Positions 38,771 to 62,467 of a stretch of 64,000 nt of DNA are shown piece by piece. The DNA comes from Raillietiella orientalis (Eukaryota), in contig JAYWIR010000015.1 of assembly GCA_036172245.1 (NCBI GenBank), forward strand, positions 2,294,001-2,358,000. Direction: 5' to 3'. Made by a program: the position numbers and the translations under genes. Below the pieces are notes generated by a model that had not been told where the DNA came from, ran no database searches, and was given only the letters and a program-made list of their open reading frames with translations. The stretch's first letter is position 1, and each line of letters starts with the position of its first letter.

Positions 38771-41581
38771 CACGGGAGCCAATGGTGATTGAAGTATTCT
38801 GTCGTGTTTGCTATCCGAAGCGATCGGAGCAATGCTACTCAGGTGTATCTGTGAATGCTGGTTGTCTGAAAGTGAGCTAGGATGGTTTCCTCCTAAGGAA
38901 TTTGAAAAACTGAACGTCCATTATTTGCGCTCCGGCGACTCGTTTTCACCTCGGATGCGAATTTCAAATCTGTCTGAGAAGACCCTAGCCCATGCCTATT
39001 TGACTTGGCTCTAAATGATCCCTGAGCTTGAACCGATCTGTTCCTTATCCGACAACGACTCGTACTGTCAGACGGTCCTGCAGACCCCGAAAATCCATGC
39101 TCTTCCCTCAGGGAACCGGATTTCCAGAGCATGACGGGAAGCTGTTTTGAAGAGCGAAGCGACTGCTGTCACGTGAACCCCTTTTGCATGGTGGTGGATC
39201 ATTCGAGAATTTTCCGTTCACAATCAACCGTTCCGTGTGCCGTATAACAGAAATTTTGACAAACCATTCCTCTTATTACTCCTCATGCTCACAGACTATT
39301 CCTCAAGTCACATCTGATGTCACTGTTGAGGTGTCCTAAATGTTCTCAAAACTCGAAAGAATCCCGAAGCCAGAACCCCTTTTCCCACGGCCAGCAAGTC
39401 CAGTGAGTGATGAATGGAGGAGCATCCTGAAGTTCTACGCTCTTTGAATGGAAGAGGTGACGGACATGTCGATCCTTCGATTTCATTCCAGTATGATGAC
39501 AAACTGGAGTTGAGATACATGAAGTAACAGCTGTTCATGCGTGCAGTATGTAAATGTAAGCTGAAAGCAAAAAGCACACAGACGATCAGATGGGTATAGC
39601 TTTTGCGTGACCTTGCGGTTAACCTGGCGGATTTTGAGATGTCCACTGTGGCGTTTATGGTCCTGGGGGAAAAGGTGTGTCTTCTAACAGAGAAAGTACC
39701 CAAACAAGTAAAATCTTATAAATTCGCAGATGGTTCAATGAGTCGACATCGTCGATGAAATTTCTGACAAGTGGCATTCGATTAAGGAGCAAAAATTATG
39801 ACGTGCATCGTGGATTTTTTTTTTTTTTTTTTTTTTAAAGAACTCTAAAGAGAGTGACCAGGAAAGATTAGCGGATAAAGCAGTGGAAAACTTCCCAAAT
39901 GATGTTAAAGGAAACGTTGTTCACGAAGATGAGCCCCAAGCAAAAGATGAAAGCACCAGAGTGGTTTGGGCAAAAAGTTTTGGTTCCTTGATCACGTATT
40001 GAAAAAGAGTTTTCGAATTCCCTTGGACAGTCGGAGCGTGTCTCCGGACTTCCCAGAGCCATGCTCAGATTTCAGTTCCTGTTTGAAGAGCTCGTGGGAT
40101 CTTCAACTTGTGGTTACGTAGACAAAAAACGAAGACGGTGGGAGAGGTTCGAGAAATTTCAAAGCAACGGAGTTTCCAAAAGCCGATTTTGGCGTTGGTT
40201 TGGTTTGAATTTTCATTTGACTCAAAATGAGTTCACGTTTGTGGCACAACGTACACGACGTACGTTTCAACCTGTACACACATGGGTGCGCACGCGCATG
40301 TACATAGATGTCCAGGGAAACGGGGGAGGGAGTGGTTGCTTCGCTCGGGACTGGGAACAACAGAAATCGCAAACTGAAGTGCGCCTCCAAACACTATTCC
40401 ACAGCAGGAACCAAGTTCTCCATGGAATATCCTTTTGGGAACCGAGATTTACTTTTGGGCATCTTTTGTATTGATGACACACGCACTCCCTCTTGGTATC
40501 GAATCCAGACGACTTCCGAGATTACTCTGATTATCATATTTCAGGAAATACACGGTGGATACGTACGCGGTGCCGATTGGCGCCCATTCCCGCGGTCCTA
40601 ATTTCACAAAAATCGAAATTCCGACCGCTTTGTGCTGAAGACGAGTCAGCTTCCGACCCGGCTGAACGGCGGTCCTCGGAATAGGTGAAGGATGCGCCGA
40701 GTCGCCGTGCGCCTTTAGAAGGGAAAGCTCTAGTTGTTCGACTTGGCATCTTTCACCTCCTACTTCATGAAACTCTCACAGATTTGGAGTGCAGCTTCTT
40801 ACACCGTTCGGTTCCGAGACTCGAGGTCATCTTCCTGAACGTGGACTTTTTTCTTTTCCGTTACGGATTTCGAATTGCAAGATTTCGAAGCAGGCAGAAG
40901 AGTTGCACTCTGCGGTGAAACGAACCCTTTGAACTATCGGCAAAGCCATGAAACTCCCAAAAGGAAATCCTTTAAGATTCCAATTCCGCCCACATAAGTA
41001 CAGTACGATTCCGAACTCAGCGTGGTTGCGAATGGAATGACTGACTTTGCTGGTGGAACGAATTGCCATTTTTTTTTTCAAGCCTCTCTGTTAATGGAAA
41101 TGTTACTTACCTTGGAAATTATTTTGGGGGATTTTTTTTTTTTTTTTCTGAACTGAGGCTCTTGCTTTTTCAATTTGAGAGTTCTTGCATCTAGAGGAGA
41201 AATGTTATGTTCGTAGAAAACTGTCCCATCATCAACGTCTCCCTAGTTTATTCTTGCAAATCTCAGTAAAGGATCAAGACAAATTTGGTCACAAGAGTCT
41301 CATAGGTGAAGCATACCTTCCTATTGAAAACTTACCAACTGTTGATGATGTGAGCGAAGCTCTCAAAATCCCTTCCATGAGTCTGAATATACTGGACCCA
41401 GAATATGATGGTAAGAAACCTTAAATAAACGGCATATGTCAAAATCACTGTTTCTTCAGAGAAAGACCTATTGGACACCTTGAGTCAAAGAAAGAAATAT
41501 GGAGACAAAATAGCTTCTCAGTTTCTGCAGCAGTTGTCAAACCGAAGTGCCAGTAGCATCAGAACGAAGAAAAGAAAATGA
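21947..41581 (+). CDS. Divergent BAIAP3 / Munc13-4 (unc-13-4)-like protein, C2A-MUN-C2B; 5' end not resolved
   Basis: Exons assembled by eye: 21947-22068; 22144-22290 (EDLVSHVKQYLCLSDEEW, GC donor); 25605-25671 (C2A 'TIRMIKARNLKG'); 32071-32191 (WSQTFQL); 32255-32299; several short exons 32343-33751; 33946-34082; 34140-34425 (MUN 'FYEWF...AVENAIKLD...HSSSALDVTTLFYEMVSFWENLHWP'); 34474-34578; 34630-34815; from 37420; ~37653-37977 (YLHGRGKGLS, C2B 'VYVLNVSQL'); ~38037-38166 (IFDEQF); 41217-41410 (ISVKDQDKFGHKSLIGEAYL); 41460-41581 (stop TGA). Confidence 0.85.
24770..25300 (-). mobile_element. 5'-truncated RLE-type non-LTR retrotransposon (NeSL/Utopia-like) C-terminus in a BAIAP3-like intron
   Basis: KCCHSG..KTLPRITNHC (CCHC), ARYDAI (RHN-like), LRPDLVL..MLDVTCPFEN (PD..D endonuclease), KY after a frameshift, IGPFGTWDP and TRDIYWAH, the typical end of NeSL/Utopia ORFs. 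Confidence 0.8.
28400..28760 (-). mobile_element. Possible decayed LINE fragment (region just upstream of RT domain)
   Basis: QSLNAELYRSELKEDLRMNKK resembles the 'LN..IT.EEL..AL..M...K.PG' region before LINE RT domain 0. Weak. Confidence 0.3.
34950..35420 (+). mobile_element. Decayed RLE-type retroelement 3' fragment, copy 1
   Basis: Nucleotide similarity to 36870-37015 (GTGCTTTCCGG...AAAATCATCAA...TTTGGATGCTG.GTTTTCCTTCAGTCA.TCTTCC). Translation DARCAF...RARV.CR.RKIIK(C/Y)G resembles the RLE 'DVxCPF...K..KY' motif. Confidence 0.45.
36550..37015 (+). mobile_element. Decayed RLE-type retroelement 3' fragment, copy 2
   Basis: NSVRECNLGSHQRRCNEV (RHN.V-like), YFEMHCAF, RKIIKYG. Homologous to 35265-35410. 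Confidence 0.45.
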
Positions 41582-51200: not shown

Positions 51201-54200
51201 AAATCAAAAACAGCATAGTTCCTTAAATGATCTAATTAATTATTCATATATCATGCAGTTTTTTTTTTGTTTTTTAAAGTGGATGCCTGAAGATGAAATC
51301 TGCAAAGCAAATTACTACGATGTGGTTTAGAAATCAACAAATCCAAGAACAAAACAAAGAATAGAAGATTTTACAAACAGATTTGCAGCCATTCACATTG
51401 CAACACAAATGGACAAGACATGAGGTAAAGGAAAAATTACTTTTTGCCTTCAGAAGTTTGTAAAGTTTCATTGATGACAGCTGATAAATTATAGAAATAC
51501 TCCAAGCTATACACTACAACTGACTGATCTGCAGTTATTTGTATGCCAACTTGTGAAAACGCGTATTGGAAATAAGGAAGCCATTGTAACTATTATACAA
51601 AAAAAAATTCACTTAAATTTTAGGATGTGCTTACAAAAGGAACAACTGTTTGTAACTGTTCTAATGTCATTTCATGATAATTCGAATCTATATTTCTTTT
51701 CTGTTCCTCTGATATACAAATCTGGGCTAACTGAGTTTCGAATTTTATAATGGCTTCCATCTGTTTTCTAATTTCATCTTCATCTGTACCTCCAAGAAGT
51801 AATCTCACCTAGAATAATAATTACGAAATCAATATTTTCTGTGAAAGTTTTGATGATCATTTATTACACGAATCATGTAATCAAGATATGCTTCAAGAAT
51901 ATGTTTATACTGGGTCTGATTGAGGTAGTAATCACGATTTTCGAGGATAAATGTAGGCTGCTGAACCTATCAAACAGAAATAAACACATTCGATTATTAA
52001 TTTGACAACAACCTCCACACAGATATACACATGCACTGTGAAGCAAAAAATGACCAAAACGTGTAACCATTTTACTATTCGGATTTCACAGATTATACAA
52101 TTTCGGAATCACATTGTATGTCTCATACATTTATAAAATGCCTAACATCTCTAAAAAAATTTTGTAACTTGCATTCAAGAAATATGATTGTGATTTGTAA
52201 AATAATGAGCAATTCTACAGAAAAATTATACTCCAACTACTTGAATTCTAAAGGCAAAAGATTTGGAATGCAACTCTTACCTCAATAATATAAACAGACG
52301 AATTTCTGTCATCTTCTTCCACTTTCCAAGCAAATAAAGTGCTAACACCATAATAATTATTCAATATCTTCATTGTGGATTGAAAATCCCAATCCTCAAC
52401 ATCAGAGATTCCAGAAACATTCCATGATCCCACTTCAGCTATTAGTGTCTTCAAAGGCTGACTACCTAACTTCTCTCTTGTTCCATTGTAATCAATACAA
52501 GACAAGTAATATCTCTTTGCTTTTTTGGCTGCATTACTTGTAAAATTTTCAAATGGCATTTCTAAAATAAGTCACTGTTAAAGCAACGCTCAAAATACAA
52601 GAAACAAAGTAGTCATGTAAAATCTTTAGGTGTTAGATTGGCTCAAATTTGCTATTTGATTTATGATAAGAGTTTCAACTTCCAAAAACTCGAATGTTGC
52701 TGCTGCAAAATGGAAAATGTATACATTGTTTTTTTCATTTTATAAAATTTGCTTCAAAGATATGCAAACATATGTGCAAACATGAAATTTTTGCCATACC
52801 TTTACAACTATACAACCTTCATTATAACTATTTACTGTTACAAGGAAATCCTATAAAGGTTGTATGAAGGCACCATCCCTACTACGATTTCTAATTTTCA
52901 GCTTCTGTAAAGCATGACTTCATTTCAGAATTCAAAACCATATTGGAAACTTCGTAAAGCAAATAATTAGCGACACCCTTCTGTCCAGTTCTTCTATCAG
53001 TATAGTTATACTCTCCAGCTATTTGAAGGTTCAAAACATTCTGTTCATTTGGATCAGAAAAAGTCTTAGTGAGAGGTTCGAATGTGTAATGCACAGTACA
53101 CAACTTTACAAACCCAAACACATTCCACTCAAATCACATCACTCAGATCAATCCGACATCACTCACTTTGGTGGATTCTTGTACACATCGAATGATTAAC
53201 CAAATCCTCGTTATAAACAAAACAAGACATAAACAACGACTCATTCCTAGACACGAACGACAAACGAAACTCAGAAGAAACAGTTGCAAAAATCAAAACC
53301 AAAGGAAACATGAGAAGATGCTTTCAATACAGGACCCATCCATCTGCTCTTACAAGCATAATTACCCCTCTTAATCATACGTCTCCTACGACGATATTTA
53401 ACATTCGAACGTCTAATATGCTTACAACTTATACGTCGGCATTTAGCAACCAGATAACGTAAAGCAAGATAACGACCACGTGTTATCACAGGCATGTCAA
53501 AACACGCACTAAACAATTTCATTAAAAACATGGAGATAAAACCAAAACCCCCAATCCCAGAACTCTTACACCTAAAGGTCACAGGTCAATTAGATAATAC
53601 TATTCACTTCACCTTCACATTACATATAAAAGCACCTACCACAACTACATACCTCAGTCAAAATGCCATATGCAAAGACTACACAATGGTGCTTCACTAT
53701 TAGCAACTACTCTACAGATGAAGAACAAGAACTTCAACAATGGCTACAAGCAAAGACAACCTACGCCATCATAGGCAAAGAAAAAGGAAAACAACAAACT
53801 TCACATCTATAAGGCTATTTTCAACGCAAGCAAGCCTACACAATACCCCAACTAAAAAAACAACACGCCTTCCAAAGAGCTCACTTGGAATTATCAAGAG
53901 GAAGTCCACAAAGTGATAACGGATACTGCTCAAAGCACGACCAACAACCATGGGGACATGGATCCATCACAACAACATACCAGCAAAGCATTCATCAATA
54001 AGTACACATCATCAAAAAATTAAAAAAATTCTAACTACTATACTTCCAGATCATCGCATTGATCAAACAAGGACACAGAAAAATGGATATGGGAAAACAA
54101 ACCAGAAATTTACGAAAAGCACTGAACATTCATCATGTACAGCATAAGACTCAGCAAATTCAACCAATCCAGCGATTCCAAGATAGCAATCACCATTACA

Positions 54201-56886
54201 AAATGGCAAAAACAATTACTAGAAATGCTACAACAACCACCGAATGACAGAGACATATACTGGTACTCAGACTACCAAGGGAACTCCGGAAAAACAACCA
54301 CAGCATATCTACTTAAGATATGATGCAAAATATCTACCTAACAAATTCCAAAAGGGCACATGCAAGCTAAATGTACAACGGAGAAAAAGCAGTTATCATT
54401 GATATAACAAAAGATACACAAGAAATCAACTATGGCCTCATTGAGACCATCAAAAATGGCATAATCTGCAGCACAAAGTATCAAGGCCACATAAAGCCAT
54501 TCCAATTTGCAATGTCTGCTTATACTATTACAAAGTCACTAAGAGAAAGAGTAATGTTCATACATAAGGTCGAGCATGTTTGAAATAATCCTTTTTCACA
54601 CTCAATAACATTAGAAAAGCATGCTTTTCACTGGCTGTAGGAAATTAACCCAACTGACGAAAACAGAAGTGCTCATGTGCAAAAATCACGAACTAAACAA
54701 ATTGAACAAATTGCTCACATCTGTACCATTTGGTCATCCTTGACCTGCTTTGTGTAAACAAATCTTATTCACACTAAATTTACTACTTAAATAAACTATT
54801 TTTTAAAATGAATCCATTTTGATATTTAATCAATTTTGCTTGGTGTTTTCATGAAAATTACTTCGCATCGTCTTAAACAGTTACATTTTTTTAGCATTTA
54901 TTTTCAAAACCTTAATACCAAACACAACAGTTTCTTTGACAATCTGACTTTGTCTAAACTTATTAACTAGGCTTTTGCTGGCATTTTTGCATTTTCATGT
55001 GTATGCATTCATGAGCAATACAAAGACATGTAAAGTTTGGAAAAAGCCTAATTTAGGACATACATGTTAATAAGCCACCCTGCATACATGGCAACAGCTT
55101 TAATATCATTTATTAAAGCTGTTGATTTTATTTATTAAACCTAAAGATTAATAATTATCTAGTCTCATTCCTTGATGCAAAACAGCTTTGATGAAAAACA
55201 TGCCTGCTCTTTTTGTTGTTGTTGTTTTCAAAAAGATAACCAGTCTTCAGACATTTTTACAGTGAACATGTCCAAAGAATTTAATTACTTTAAACTAAGA
55301 CACATTTTCATTAGCATCAAACACATAAAGCCAATTAATGGATTTGATGTACTTTGGGAATGTTTCATGTTTTAGTATAACTGCAAGAAATTTTTGTGTT
55401 GAATGCTACATTTGATGCCTTGAAAACTTTGAACAGCTTCAAATATTCTTCAAAAGTTGCAACTTTTGTCATAACACCTGAAGAATTAATATTTACGAAC
55501 TACATTTACATGCTTAAATGCAATCATACTTTAACAGTATCTTTGATATAGTATGATTACCACAGGACTACATTTAAATGGTTAGCACATCTGCCAGAAG
55601 TCTAAAATTTTGTGCATTTAAATGAATAGCGGCAATAAATGCTCTTGTTTTCAGAAACATACCCTATAAAAATACGAAAACTGATCACCAAACATGGAAT
55701 GAGAGTTCATTTACCCACTGAGAATATTTCTAAAATGAATTAAAACACTCCAAACAATATAATTTTTAAATTAAAAATTTTCACATTTTAAAACAGCATG
55801 AAGGAAATCTGTAGTTATTAAATTTGTTAAAACTTTCTTTGCTATCAAACAGGTAATAAAGCTCATCAAATGTCTTGTAACCATGTTAAAAAAAAAAAAA
55901 AATCTACACCATTTTTATATGAGAATGCACCAACAAGGAAATAGTGAATTAGTTCACAGTGTCTGTATCAAGGAAATATGGGTTAGTTCACAAGGTCATT
56001 TTTTTCTGAATGATTTCATGATTCATAATTTTTTAAATAGCTAATTCTTACCCAATATATTTTTCAGTATCAATTGATTTTGTTGCCAGAGCATACCAAA
56101 TGTGGCCCAGAATGGTTTTCCATAAGGAATAGGATTCTTCTTGATCCAACCTCCACAAGCAAAATGATAAAAATCCTCACAAGGATCAACACTCTCATCA
56201 ATTGATGAAATAACAGCAGATGCAACCGATATGCAAGAAGATGTCAAGCAATACACAGAATGCTGTGGTTTTCCTTATCAGATAAACAAAGAATTAAGAC
56301 AAAAATCATGGGAATAAAAAAAATACATCAAATTTTACTATTTTAAAAAAATATATCAGAAGACAACAGTATTTTTGGAACTGTATATTATTTTTAAGAT
56401 TAGCATGCAGGTGATTTTAAAAGATTTTAATTTTTCATTTACCACATGAACTAATATTTTGATCTACATTCTGCCTAGGAAGATCACTTTGCTTTTGATA
56501 AATTTTAGTGACGAAGCCCCAAAAAATTATTATTATAATGAAGAAAATACAGCATAATACGAGAAGAGATTTCTCTAAATTAGTGCGTTTATCCCAAACA
56601 GAAGAAACCTAGCAAAATAAGGGGTGAATGCAAAGATGAATAGTAAACTTCAATCACATAAATTAAAAATCAAAACAGCAAACTTGAATCACAACTTACT
56701 GAATTACAAGACTACTTTTCACATATTAAACCCCTTGGATTAGTTTGAATAATAATGCAAATAATGGATACCAACCTCTTTGAACTGTATTCCAGATCTA
56801 GCTTCATTGATTTCTTCAAAAGCTAAAACTGAATTAAAACTACTACTTTCCTCATCCTCTAATTCAGAGTGCTTATATTGCTTCAT
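45238..56886 (-). CDS. Nep3: M13 metallopeptidase, endothelin-converting enzyme / neprilysin-3-like (type II membrane protein)
   Basis: 14 exons in frame: 56886-56776 ([16 protein letters not shown]), 56608-56443 (TM helix [16 protein letters not shown]), 56273-56052 ([14 protein letters not shown]), 52561-52281, 51966-51868, 51808-51635, 51589-51441, 50938-50716, 49870-49747, 48168-48012, 47968-47790 ([14 protein letters not shown] = HEXXH), 47747-47601, 45603-45464 (GENIADNGG), 45414-45238 (CELW stop). The N-terminus resembles insect Nep3/ECE, but orthology needs a tree. Confidence 0.93.
52891..53495 (-). pseudogene. Putative capsid gene of the endogenous CRESS virus, frameshifted
   Basis: ATG at 53495 gives [44 protein letters not shown], an Arg-rich N-terminal arm typical of ssDNA virus capsids. 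It is oriented divergently from Rep. After frameshifts it continues into ORF 53121-52891 ([15 protein letters not shown]...YNYTDRRTG...), stop at 52891. Confidence 0.65.
53582..53632 (-). promoter_or_regulatory. Degenerate rolling-circle origin (TAGTATTAT, cf. TAGTATTAC) and Rep TATA box
   Basis: ATAATACTA at 53594-53602 reads TAGTATTAT on minus, one mismatch from the circo/nanovirus nonamer. It is flanked by a partly complementary AGGTCAATTAG / TTCACTTCACCT. TATAAAA on plus (~53625-53631) lies about 30 nt before the Rep ATG. Confidence 0.55.
53663..54583 (+). pseudogene. rep: CRESS-DNA virus replication initiator (Rep: HUH endonuclease + SF3 helicase), disrupted
   Basis: From ATG 53663: [16 protein letters not shown] (motif I), IGKE.G..TSHL*GY (motif II HLQG, TAA at 53810-53812), frameshift, AHLELSRGS...YCSK (motif III, 53924-53935), [26 protein letters not shown] (Walker A, 54279-54296), [11 protein letters not shown] (Walker B, ~54392-54406), [19 protein letters not shown]. 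Confidence 0.93.
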
Positions 56887-62107: not shown

Positions 62108-62467
62108 TCAAACTTCTATCTTTTGTTTTTTATTCTCTGTTTCAAAATCCTCCAGGAAAGAAACGTCATCCAAAAAAGACATATCGCCTACGCAAATTTC
62201 ATCGAAAAAGTCCAATATAGACTTCTGAGAGGCCTTAAAGAGGAAAGCCATTAAGAACTAAAGTTTGGGTTCACTCACTTTCAGAGACGATGTATCAGCG
62301 TCGGAAAACGAATCCTTGCTCAAACCAGCTTCATTTAGAATGCGCAACTTCTCTTTCACAATTGGCCAAAGAAGGTCATCCGCCGTATCTTGGGCAACAA
62401 GATACTGAATGATCACGAAGTTGTTTTGGCCAATTCGGTGGACTCTGTCTTCTGCTTGAGTCAATAT
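62108..62467 (-). CDS. SMARCAL1: SMARCAL1/HARP annealing helicase, last two coding exons (upstream exons lie beyond the window end)
   Basis: Exon 62467-62279 reads [14 protein letters not shown] (SNF2 motif VI)...[31 protein letters not shown], the SMARCAL1-type tail. A 45 nt GT-AG intron follows, then exon 62233-62108 [10 protein letters not shown]...NKKQKIEV stop. Confidence 0.88.

What the first reader, a model, noticed from the sequence alone, without database searches (positions are those of the whole stretch)
52860..54590. Roughly complete endogenous ssDNA (CRESS) virus genome fossilised in an intron of the ECE/neprilysin gene
Seen: a Rep with rolling-circle motifs I (CFTISN), II (HL*G), III (YCSK), Walker A (GNSGKT) and Walker B (VIIDI); a divergently transcribed Arg-rich capsid-like gene; and an origin-like nonamer between them, all within ~1.7 kb. 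Known: this is the ambisense layout of circular Rep-encoding ssDNA viruses, most of which come from metagenomes with no host. Inference: the stops and frameshifts, plus host intron on both sides, indicate germline integration. That would link an unclassified CRESS lineage to this animal host. Keeping rep, cap and ori together is less common than Rep-only fossils.
Basis: partly seen in the sequence, partly recalled or inferred. Interest (0 to 1): 0.88.

Follow-up and report, generated by a model that had tools for sequence, protein, structure and literature searches.

The report
Decayed CRESS-virus fossil in host intron
A dead, roughly unit-length copy of a small circular single-stranded-DNA virus sits inside an intron of an invertebrate M13 (ECE/neprilysin-type) peptidase gene, which is an ordinary kind of viral fossil but a fairly complete one.

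Summary
Window 53663-54583 (+) is a Rep pseudogene. Its N-terminal piece passes Pfam Viral_Rep (E=1e-13, 51.8 bits, cut-off 26) and aligns to PCV2 Rep over motifs I-III. The helicase part matches the same full-length Reps in two other frame segments. The reading path has 5 in-frame stops and 2 frameshifts.

A 167-nt spacer carries an 8-of-9 copy of the nonamer that the closest viral genomes use, on the same strand as in several of them. A divergent, Arg-rich, frameshifted cap-like frame runs 53495 to about 52891 (-). No search found a homologue for it.

Host M13 peptidase exons flank the element collinearly. It is a single copy in the window.

The best Rep relatives are about 40-47% identical. 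Of 30 looked up, 28 are unnamed, on contigs mostly about 2 kb long. One of the two named ones is Uewvirus (Anicreviridae).

Verdict: a genuine endogenous CRESS-DNA virus element, close to one genome unit, opened between the 3' ends of the two genes. It is a new member of a known kind. Read support, orthologues and host identity could not be tested.

The parts
53663..54583 (+). Rep pseudogene (HUH endonuclease plus SF3 helicase), about 305 codons. Reading path: frame 2 for 53663 to about 54079, frame 3 for about 54081-54320, frame 2 for about 54323-54583. In-path stops at 53810, 53999, 54032, 54123 and 54368. Frameshifts near 54080 and 54320.
   Evidence: Pfam Viral_Rep E=1e-13; PCV2 Rep 2hw0 E=9.9e-9; tblastn of full-length Reps in three collinear segments; frames and stops
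53663..54001 (+). Rep endonuclease domain with motifs I, II (interrupted by a stop) and III
54186..54505 (+). Rep helicase region with Walker A (about 54281-54298) and Walker B (about 54389-54403), split over two frames
   Evidence: tblastn HSPs from 26 and 22 of 150 Rep relatives; consensus of relatives; translation
53496..53662 (.). 5' intergenic region between the two start codons (167 nt)
53594..53602 (-). Origin nonamer remnant TAGTATTAT, 8 of 9 to TAGTATTAC, on the cap-sense strand; flanking stem decayed
   Evidence: match; no stable fold; relatives carry TAGTATTAC in GC-rich hairpins, on the strand opposite rep in 5 of 12 and 5 of 5 genomes examined
53607..53618 (+). Tandem hexamer CTTCAC CTTCAC, 4 nt from the nonamer; iteron-like, significance untested
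   Evidence: read directly
53625..53631 (+). TATAAAA, 32 nt upstream of the rep ATG; TATA-box-like, untested
   Evidence: read directly
52891..53495 (-). Cap-like pseudogene, about 200 codons in three tiled frames (53495-53271, 53323-53159, 53133-52891); Arg-rich N-terminus; at least 2 frameshifts; no homologue found; 3' end uncertain
   Evidence: blanks
56047..56253 (-). Host M13 peptidase exon upstream of the intron
   Evidence: tblastn; Pfam Peptidase_M13_N positions 1-44, E=1.5e-14
52269..52568 (-). Host M13 peptidase exon downstream of the intron
   Evidence: tblastn; Pfam Peptidase_M13_N positions 51-134, E=4.4e-16
52569..56046 (-). Host intron (about 3.48 kb) that holds the element; rep is antisense and cap sense to the host gene
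52810..52865 (.). Hairpin (13-nt arms, 92% complementary, 30-nt loop) just outside the cap-like frame; viral or host origin undecided
   Evidence: I8; -9.7 kcal/mol, z -3.18, 1 of 200 shuffles as good

Best explanation
This is an endogenous viral element: one roughly unit-length copy of a small (about 1.7 kb) ambisense CRESS-DNA virus (phylum Cressdnaviricota), inserted into an intron of an invertebrate M13 (ECE/neprilysin-type) peptidase gene and now dead. SHOWN: a true but broken Rep; a cap-like frame in divergent orientation; a nonamer remnant between them; intact host exons on both sides. INFERRED, step 1: the double-stranded replicative form was opened between the 3' ends of rep and cap, not at the origin nick, and joined into the chromosome by non-homologous recombination. 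The reason is that the origin region is internal and both gene ends face the host flanks. INFERRED, step 2: the copy was inherited and has decayed without constraint, by roughly 0.09 changes per site (0.03-0.21). INFERRED, step 3: it has no present function and is removed with the intron. The source virus belonged to a clade known almost only from metagenomic contigs of about 1.6-2.8 kb. That clade uses TAGTATTAC in a GC-rich hairpin, often on the cap-sense strand. Its one family-level named member seen here is Uewvirus yahnais (Anicreviridae, Mulpavirales).
For: REP: Pfam Viral_Rep at 51.8 bits against a cut-off of 26. Eight solved Rep chains match at E 1e-8 to 3e-4, with motifs I-III aligned. 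There are 3087 hits at E<=1e-3, the best at 42% identity. The helicase part matches the same proteins in frames 3 and 2. DECAY: 5 in-path stops in 305 codons and 2 frameshifts in rep, and at least 2 shifts in the cap-like frame. In the same contig the host exons read open and conserved, for example 137 aa at up to 67% identity to ECE homologues, so the breaks are not general assembly error. HOST FLANKS: collinear exons at 56253-56047 and 52568-52269 (Pfam). COMPOSITION: T falls to 0.18-0.21 and A rises to 0.40-0.46 from about 53200 to 54400, against T of 0.30-0.44 in the flanks. GC is 0.37 against 0.30. LAYOUT AND SIZE: all 5 of the 5 metagenome contigs examined from the top of the Rep ranking have rep (+), an Arg-rich cap (-) and TAGTATTAC in a hairpin on the cap-sense strand. 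Three of them have terminal overlaps that imply circles of about 1.63, 1.64 and 1.89 kb. Of the 12 best IMG/VR genomes, 10 carry TAGTATTAC and 2 carry CAGTATTAC in stable hairpins. CAP-LIKE FRAME: 13 Arg in the first 50 residues (4 of 1554 windows reach this). The three tiled minus-strand ORFs exceed all but 6 of 2000 dinucleotide shuffles. There is no terminal redundancy or target duplication above chance.
Against: No read-level or population evidence for the junctions could be obtained, and no orthologous or empty site could be examined (no genome held). The cap-like frame has no detectable homologue in any search, including profiles built from the caps of the nearest relatives, whose scores were no better than those of reversed and opposite-strand controls. 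The + strand of the same 605 nt is about as open (11 of 2000 shuffles). The leftmost 200 nt have host-like composition, so the cap 3' end and the left junction are uncertain. The nonamer is a one-mismatch match of a kind that occurs at chance frequency in the window, and no hairpin survives. The Rep tree places the element on a long branch (1.52) joined to two other long branches. It also contains no reference set of named families.
Confidence: 0.85

Rival explanations
1. Rep-only fossil. Only rep plus the upstream non-coding region and perhaps the first part of cap are viral. The rest of the 'cap' (about 52891-53130 or more) is ordinary host intron that happens to be open.
For: No homologue for any cap piece. 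An 80-codon longest ORF is reached by 109 of 2000 shuffles, and the + strand is similarly open. Composition at 52800-53199 is closer to the flanks.
Against: The Arg-rich start sits exactly where relatives place cap. Three ORFs tile the minus strand (6 of 2000 shuffles). A cap ending near 53130 would have only about 120 codons, against the 170-256 aa of the complete (Met-initiated) cap ORFs in the relatives examined. Caps of related CRESS viruses are reported to lack detectable similarity to one another (PMC7493932, passages), so a blank is expected.
Confidence: 0.1
2. Assembly artefact: an exogenous or contaminating CRESS virus genome was wrongly joined into the host contig.
For: CRESS genomes are common contaminants of sequencing samples (general knowledge). 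No reads could be examined here.
Against: A replicating virus would not carry 5 stops and 2 frameshifts in rep plus shifts in cap. Host exons of one gene lie collinearly on both sides within 3.5 kb. There is no terminal redundancy of the kind that circular assemblies leave.
Confidence: 0.03
3. A Rep gene of non-viral origin (plasmid, transposon or domesticated host gene) rather than a virus fossil.
For: HUH Reps also occur on plasmids and transposons (general knowledge).
Against: The fused Viral_Rep plus SF3-type helicase matches proteins encoded on contigs mostly about 2 kb long. Every one of the 17 contigs whose DNA was examined has a TAGTATTAC or CAGTATTAC hairpin, and most of them a basic-N-terminus second ORF. 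The gene is broken, so it is not domesticated.
Confidence: 0.02

Closest known systems
Endogenous CRESS/circovirus-like elements of animal and protist genomes (Dennis et al. 2018, PMC6069186; Dennis et al. 2019, PMC6372831; Kinsella et al. 2020, PMC7493932; passages read)
   Same: A Rep-derived sequence with stops and frameshifts lies inside host DNA and can be used as a host marker for a metagenome-only virus lineage. Whole-genome (rep plus cap) integrations are described in Entamoeba and Giardia, and four vertebrate cases carry both genes.
   Different: Here rep, a cap-like frame and the origin region lie together in about 1.7 kb. In those surveys most elements are rep-only. The source lineage differs (see below).
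Uewvirus yahnais Rep (AXH75585.1; Anicreviridae, Mulpavirales)
   Same: It is one of only two named proteins among 30 top relatives looked up, and the only one named to family. It matches all three Rep segments at 38%, 51% and 36% identity. It sits in the same 31-row clade as the element (local support 99).
   Different: Identity is low. The element is on a long branch and no other named family was in the tree, so family membership is untested. No cap comparison was possible because its DNA was not in hand.
Small metagenomic CRESS genomes L080, L086, L126 and L098 (about 1.6-1.9 kb)
   Different: Rep segments are only 32-51% identical. Caps show no similarity to the element's cap-like frame. 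Their hairpins are intact.
Porcine circovirus 2 Rep (PDB 2hw0, 7lar; Circoviridae)
   Same: HUH endonuclease motifs I, II and III align over 86 residues, E about 1e-8.
   Different: A distant relative only. No Pfam circovirus capsid match. In PCV the nonamer is on the rep-sense strand (PMC6069186 introduction, for the orientation of the genes; the strand of the nonamer is recalled).

Membership tests
Cressdnaviricota Rep (HUH endonuclease fused to SF3 helicase) | Endonuclease domain recognised by the family profile, with motifs I, II and III | tested here: met
   Pfam PF02407 at 51.8 bits against a cut-off of 26. Motifs align with PCV2 Rep. Motif II is interrupted by a stop.
Cressdnaviricota Rep (HUH endonuclease fused to SF3 helicase) | C-terminal P-loop helicase with Walker A and B collinear with the endonuclease domain | tested here: met
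   tblastn of full-length Reps gives collinear HSPs at 54186-54320 and 54320-54505. The motifs are visible. The pieces alone gave no Pfam RNA_helicase hit. Of 8 relatives scanned, 2 pass that model.
Endogenous viral element (germline-fixed) | Host sequence on both sides in one molecule | tested here: met
   Collinear M13 peptidase exons on both sides, at the level of the assembled contig only.
Endogenous viral element (germline-fixed) | Inactivating mutations incompatible with a replicating virus | tested here: met
   5 in-path stops and 2 frameshifts in rep; at least 2 shifts in the cap-like frame.
Endogenous viral element (germline-fixed) | Junctions supported by reads; presence in several individuals or an orthologous site in relatives | not testable with these tools
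   No genome is held and no run could be listed for read mapping.
Complete CRESS genome (rep + cap + ori) | Capsid gene recognisable by homology or fold | tested here: not met
   Blank in Pfam, the word search, the Atlas (best score 0.83, recognition 1476), tblastx, phmmer and profiles against 158 CRESS contigs. The model of the 80-aa piece has pLDDT 48.6. Only position, size and the Arg-rich N-terminus support it.
Complete CRESS genome (rep + cap + ori) | Origin: conserved nonamer in the loop of a stem-loop | tested here: inconclusive
   An 8-of-9 nonamer lies in the expected spacer and on the expected strand. The stem is not foldable now. The canonical pattern is absent from the element.
Anicreviridae (Mulpavirales) | Rep falls inside the family clade in a tree with reference Reps of all families | tested here: inconclusive
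   A FastTree of 100 rows puts the element in a 31-row set with Uewvirus (support 99), but on a 1.52 branch joined to long branches. No other named family was present.
Circoviridae | Rep close to Circovirus or Cyclovirus; circovirus-type capsid | tested here: not met
   PCV2 Rep matches only at E about 1e-8, while unnamed CRESS Reps reach 1e-20. No circovirus capsid profile hit. One relative carries the loose label 'Circoviridae sp.'.

The most novel reading that the evidence does not exclude
The fossil is the first physical host anchor for a clade of very small (about 1.6-1.9 kb) ambisense CRESS viruses, with the origin on the cap-sense strand, that is otherwise known almost only from metagenomic contigs (Anicreviridae-like). 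It would show that this clade infected the germline-accessible cells of an invertebrate animal. It would also carry a capsid gene of a family with no detectable relatives.
Probability: 0.4. Interest if true: 0.45.

Novelty: new member of a known kind. Interest (0 to 1): 0.3.

Why it matters
Most CRESS-DNA viruses are known only as metagenomic circles without a host. An integrated copy is direct evidence that a lineage once replicated in the nuclei of a particular animal line. This one keeps rep, the origin region and probably cap in one piece. It therefore records the gene order, origin strand and size of the ancient virus, and it shows that the circle was opened away from the origin nick. That is a useful data point for host assignment and for how ssDNA viruses enter genomes. 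It does not change what is known: such fossils, including whole-genome ones, are already described.

Tried and rejected
1. Sequencing runs: none was listed for 52300-55100 and no RNA holder was listed.

2. Own genome: not held.

3. Earlier notes of this scan: none by place or by sequence.

4. Word-index search with the Rep N-terminal piece against longer proteins: 18 candidates, none significant. The full HMMER search then found thousands.

5. Scan of viral contigs with the element's own peptides: no relative. Scans with alignments worked.

6. Cap homology was blank everywhere.
- Pfam at E<=1.
- Atlas: best 0.83, below the level at which a hit counts.
- Word search: 22 candidates, none at E<=0.1.
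- tblastx against 78 IMG/VR loci: 0 hits at E<=0.1.
- tblastx against 80 metagenome loci: 2 hits at E=0.62.
- phmmer: best under 6 bits, and only the Arg-rich stretch.
- Jackhmmer profiles of the relatives' caps: at most 2.8 bits, like the controls.

7. AlphaFold of the 80-aa cap piece: pLDDT 48.6, unusable, so no fold search was run.

8. An intron inside rep (GT...AG around 54002-54054) was considered and dropped. The spacing between motif III and Walker A equals that of relatives without splicing.

9. Terminal redundancy, target duplication or inverted ends: the best local scores were 19, below the shuffled median of 21.

10. The flanks are not repeated elsewhere in the window.

11. Host identity: the best exon is at most 67% identical to any listed ECE homologue. 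The named ones are mostly insects, with arachnids, crustaceans, molluscs, echinoderms, hemichordates, birds and an annelid also listed. The host is most likely an invertebrate metazoan, but the group is unresolved.

12. A second nonamer-like site, TACTATTAC (+) at 54523-54531, lies inside the rep 3' coding part with no flanking stem. It is treated as chance.


Full report
WHAT IS THERE

The + strand of 53663-54583 reads as a CRESS-type replication protein. It shows WCFTISNY (motif I), SHL*GYF (motif II, cut by a stop), GYCSKH (motif III), QGNSGKTTT (Walker A) and AVIIDITK (Walker B).

The N-terminal piece 53663-54001, with stops read as X, gave these results:
- It scores 51.8 bits on Pfam Viral_Rep (PF02407) against a cut-off of 26, E=1e-13, covering profile positions 2-81 of 82.
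- It matches eight solved Rep chains. PCV2 Rep 2hw0 is best at E=9.9e-9, with the three motifs aligned.
- A full HMMER search of 1.84 billion representatives gave 3087 proteins at E<=1e-3 and 136 at E<=1e-10. The best was P0001 at 42% identity, E=1e-20.

When the 150 best were laid back on the window by tblastn, 196 of 198 HSPs fell in 53615-54622. The other two were weak (E 0.008 and 0.010). Of the 150 queries, 148 hit the endonuclease part, 26 hit 54075-54325 and 22 hit 54320-54622, collinearly. The helicase half is therefore present as well.

HOW IT IS BROKEN

The reading path is frame 2 (53663 to about 54079), frame 3 (about 54081-54320), then frame 2 again (about 54323-54583). In-path stops lie at 53810, 53999, 54032, 54123 and 54368. 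That is 5 stops in 305 codons plus two frameshifts. An imperfect direct repeat, two 17-nt copies 25 nt apart, lies at the second shift (D7).

About 6% of point changes in these codons would create a stop. Five stops therefore imply roughly 0.09 changes per site (95% range 0.03-0.21). This is a rough inference that assumes equal rates and neutrality since insertion.

The host exons in the same contig are open and conserved. The breaks are therefore not general assembly error.

THE OTHER STRAND

An ATG at 53495 on the - strand opens MPVITRGR..., with 13 Arg in the first 50 residues. Only 4 of 1554 stop-free 50-residue windows in the whole window reach that count.

Three minus-strand ORFs tile 53495-53271, 53323-53159 and 53133-52891. 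Their summed length is reached by 6 of 2000 dinucleotide shuffles. The + strand of the same stretch is nearly as open (11 of 2000), and the longest single ORF is not unusual (109 of 2000).

Every homology test of this frame was blank:
- Pfam.
- The ESM Atlas: best score 0.83, recognition 1476.
- The word-index search: 22 candidates, none significant.
- tblastx and phmmer against 78 IMG/VR CRESS genomes.
- tblastx against 80 metagenome contigs: two hits at E=0.62.
- Profiles built from the caps of the nearest relatives: at most 2.8 bits, no better than reversed or opposite-strand controls.
- An AlphaFold model of the 80-residue piece, which was unusable (pLDDT 48.6).

The capsid reading therefore rests on position, orientation, size and the basic N-terminus. 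A blank is not surprising. Kinsella et al. report caps of closely related CRESS viruses with no detectable similarity (PMC7493932, passages).

THE SPACER AND THE ORIGIN

The 167 nt between the start codons (53496-53662) hold TAGTATTAT on the - strand at 53594-53602. On its own this is weak:
- One-mismatch matches to TAGTATTAC occur 9 times in the window against 8.94 expected.
- The exact consensus is absent from the element.
- The region no longer folds (z +1.3 and +1.5).

The relatives give it meaning:
- Of the 12 IMG/VR genomes that best match the element's Rep, 10 carry TAGTATTAC and 2 carry CAGTATTAC in stable GC-rich hairpins. In 5 of the 12 the hairpin is on the strand opposite rep.
- Five contigs from the top of the metagenome ranking by summed Rep score were examined: ranks 1-3, 7 and 8 (L080, L086, L097, L098, L126). 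All 5 carry TAGTATTAC on the cap-sense strand next to the rep start.
- An alignment of these origins with the element keeps the nonamer columns, but the arms of the element are degenerate.

Next to the nonamer lie a tandem hexamer (53607-53618) and a TATAAAA 32 nt before the rep ATG. Both were read and neither was tested.

COMPLETENESS AND ENDS

Rep relatives end about 10-30 residues after a ...DRW.I... block. The element's frame reaches its stop at 54583 with a recognisable remnant of that region, and one relative aligns as far as 54622. The cap-like frame stops at 52891. The span 52891-54583 is 1693 nt.

The nearest small relatives are contigs of 1749, 1766 and 1720 nt. The last two have 127- and 90-nt terminal overlaps, which implies circles of about 1.64 and 1.63 kb. 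The element is therefore about one genome unit.

Both gene 3' ends face the host flanks and the origin is internal. The circle was thus opened between the 3' ends, not at the origin nick. This fits non-homologous joining of the double-stranded form, which is an inference.

No terminal redundancy, target duplication or inverted ends exceed chance.

The left end is uncertain. Composition is virus-like (T 0.18-0.21, A 0.40-0.46) from about 53200 to 54400 and closer to host at 52800-53199. A hairpin at 52810-52865 (z -3.18) and a 16-nt palindrome at 54614-54629 lie just outside. Their origin is open.

HOST CONTEXT

Seven full-length ECE homologues align to the - strand collinearly from 56253 to 45241. 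In one example, residues up to 164 end at 56047 and residues from 161 resume at 52568. Pfam finds Peptidase_M13_N positions 1-44 in 56041-56274 and positions 51-134 in 52248-52571. It finds Peptidase_M13 in later exons.

The element therefore lies in a 3.48-kb intron, with rep antisense and cap sense to the gene. The flanks are not repeated in the window and the element is a single copy there.

The best exon is at most 67% identical to any listed homologue. The named ones are mostly insects, with arachnids, crustaceans, molluscs, echinoderms, hemichordates, birds and an annelid also listed. The host is most likely an invertebrate metazoan whose group I cannot name.

RELATIVES AND PLACEMENT

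Of 30 top Rep relatives looked up, 28 are unnamed, on contigs of about 0.5-4 kb (most about 2 kb) plus one of 55 kb. One is AXH75585.1, Uewvirus yahnais (Anicreviridae, Mulpavirales). One is AXH77070.1, labelled 'Circoviridae sp.'. A review table lists Anicreviridae with invertebrates and vertebrates as hosts (PMC11945456, one passage).

A FastTree was built from the element (read through with X) and the 99 hits of 250-420 residues; 51 of the 150 hits were left out by length. It puts the element in a 31-row set with Uewvirus (local support 99). Within that set the element is on a 1.52 branch joined to two other long branches, and its highest identity is 32% over 247 columns. No other named family was in the tree, so family membership is untested.

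Scans of IMG/VR and of the metagenome collection found nothing closer than about 44% in the endonuclease domain.

COMPARISON WITH WHAT IS KNOWN

CRESS and circovirus-derived fossils are well described in animal genomes, most of them rep-only (PMC6069186, passages). Four vertebrate cases with both genes are reported (PMC6372831, passages). Whole CRESS genomes integrated in Entamoeba and Giardia were used to assign hosts (PMC7493932, passages). For these papers I read only the search listings and the cited passages, and no supplements.

This locus is a further example: more complete than most, from a poorly sampled lineage, with no sign of function.

NOT DONE

Read support, empty alleles, other genomic copies and small RNAs could not be examined (no genome held).

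VERDICT

This is a real endogenous CRESS-DNA virus element (confidence 0.85) and a new member of a known kind. Interest is modest.

Noticed in passing
window 52810-52865: A hairpin with 13-nt arms (92% complementary) and a 30-nt loop lies 26 nt beyond the stop of the cap-like frame. Its DNA fold is -9.7 kcal/mol, z -3.18. It could be part of the viral 3' intergenic region or host intron.
   Followed up: partly
window 54614-54629: A perfect 16-nt palindrome (overlapping 10-nt arms, I17) lies about 30 nt beyond the rep stop. The surrounding 101 nt do not fold better than shuffles.
   Followed up: partly
window 54523-54531 (+): A second one-mismatch nonamer match (TACTATTAC) on the rep-sense strand, inside the 3' coding part of rep, with no flanking inverted repeat seen.
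   Followed up: partly
window 53136-53165 and 54305-54346: Short spaced direct repeats (10 nt twice, 20 nt apart; 17 nt twice, 25 nt apart) coincide with the places where the cap-like and rep frames shift (D14 and D7). They look like small duplications acquired during decay.
   Followed up: no
window 53200-53599: 16 CpG in 400 nt, within the Arg-rich start of the cap-like frame, against 0-3 per 200 nt in the flanking intron. CpG o/e is 0.61 for the element, 0.39 for the flanks and 0.80 for the whole window.
   Followed up: no
window 41179-41424 (+): An ORF piece with a weak C2-domain match (PF00168, E=4e-4, 21 bits, just under the cut-off of 22). It probably belongs to a neighbouring host gene on the other strand from the peptidase gene.
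   Followed up: no
window 62258-62467 (-): A 69-aa open piece containing ...DRVHRIGQ..., which I recall as a motif of SNF2-type helicases. Pfam gave no hit at E<=0.01.
   Followed up: partly
L009 (IMG/VR contig, 6.7 kb held of 7.3 kb): One contig carries three Rep ORFs and three TAGTATTAC or CAGTATTAC hairpins. It may be a concatenated or multi-component CRESS assembly.
   Followed up: no
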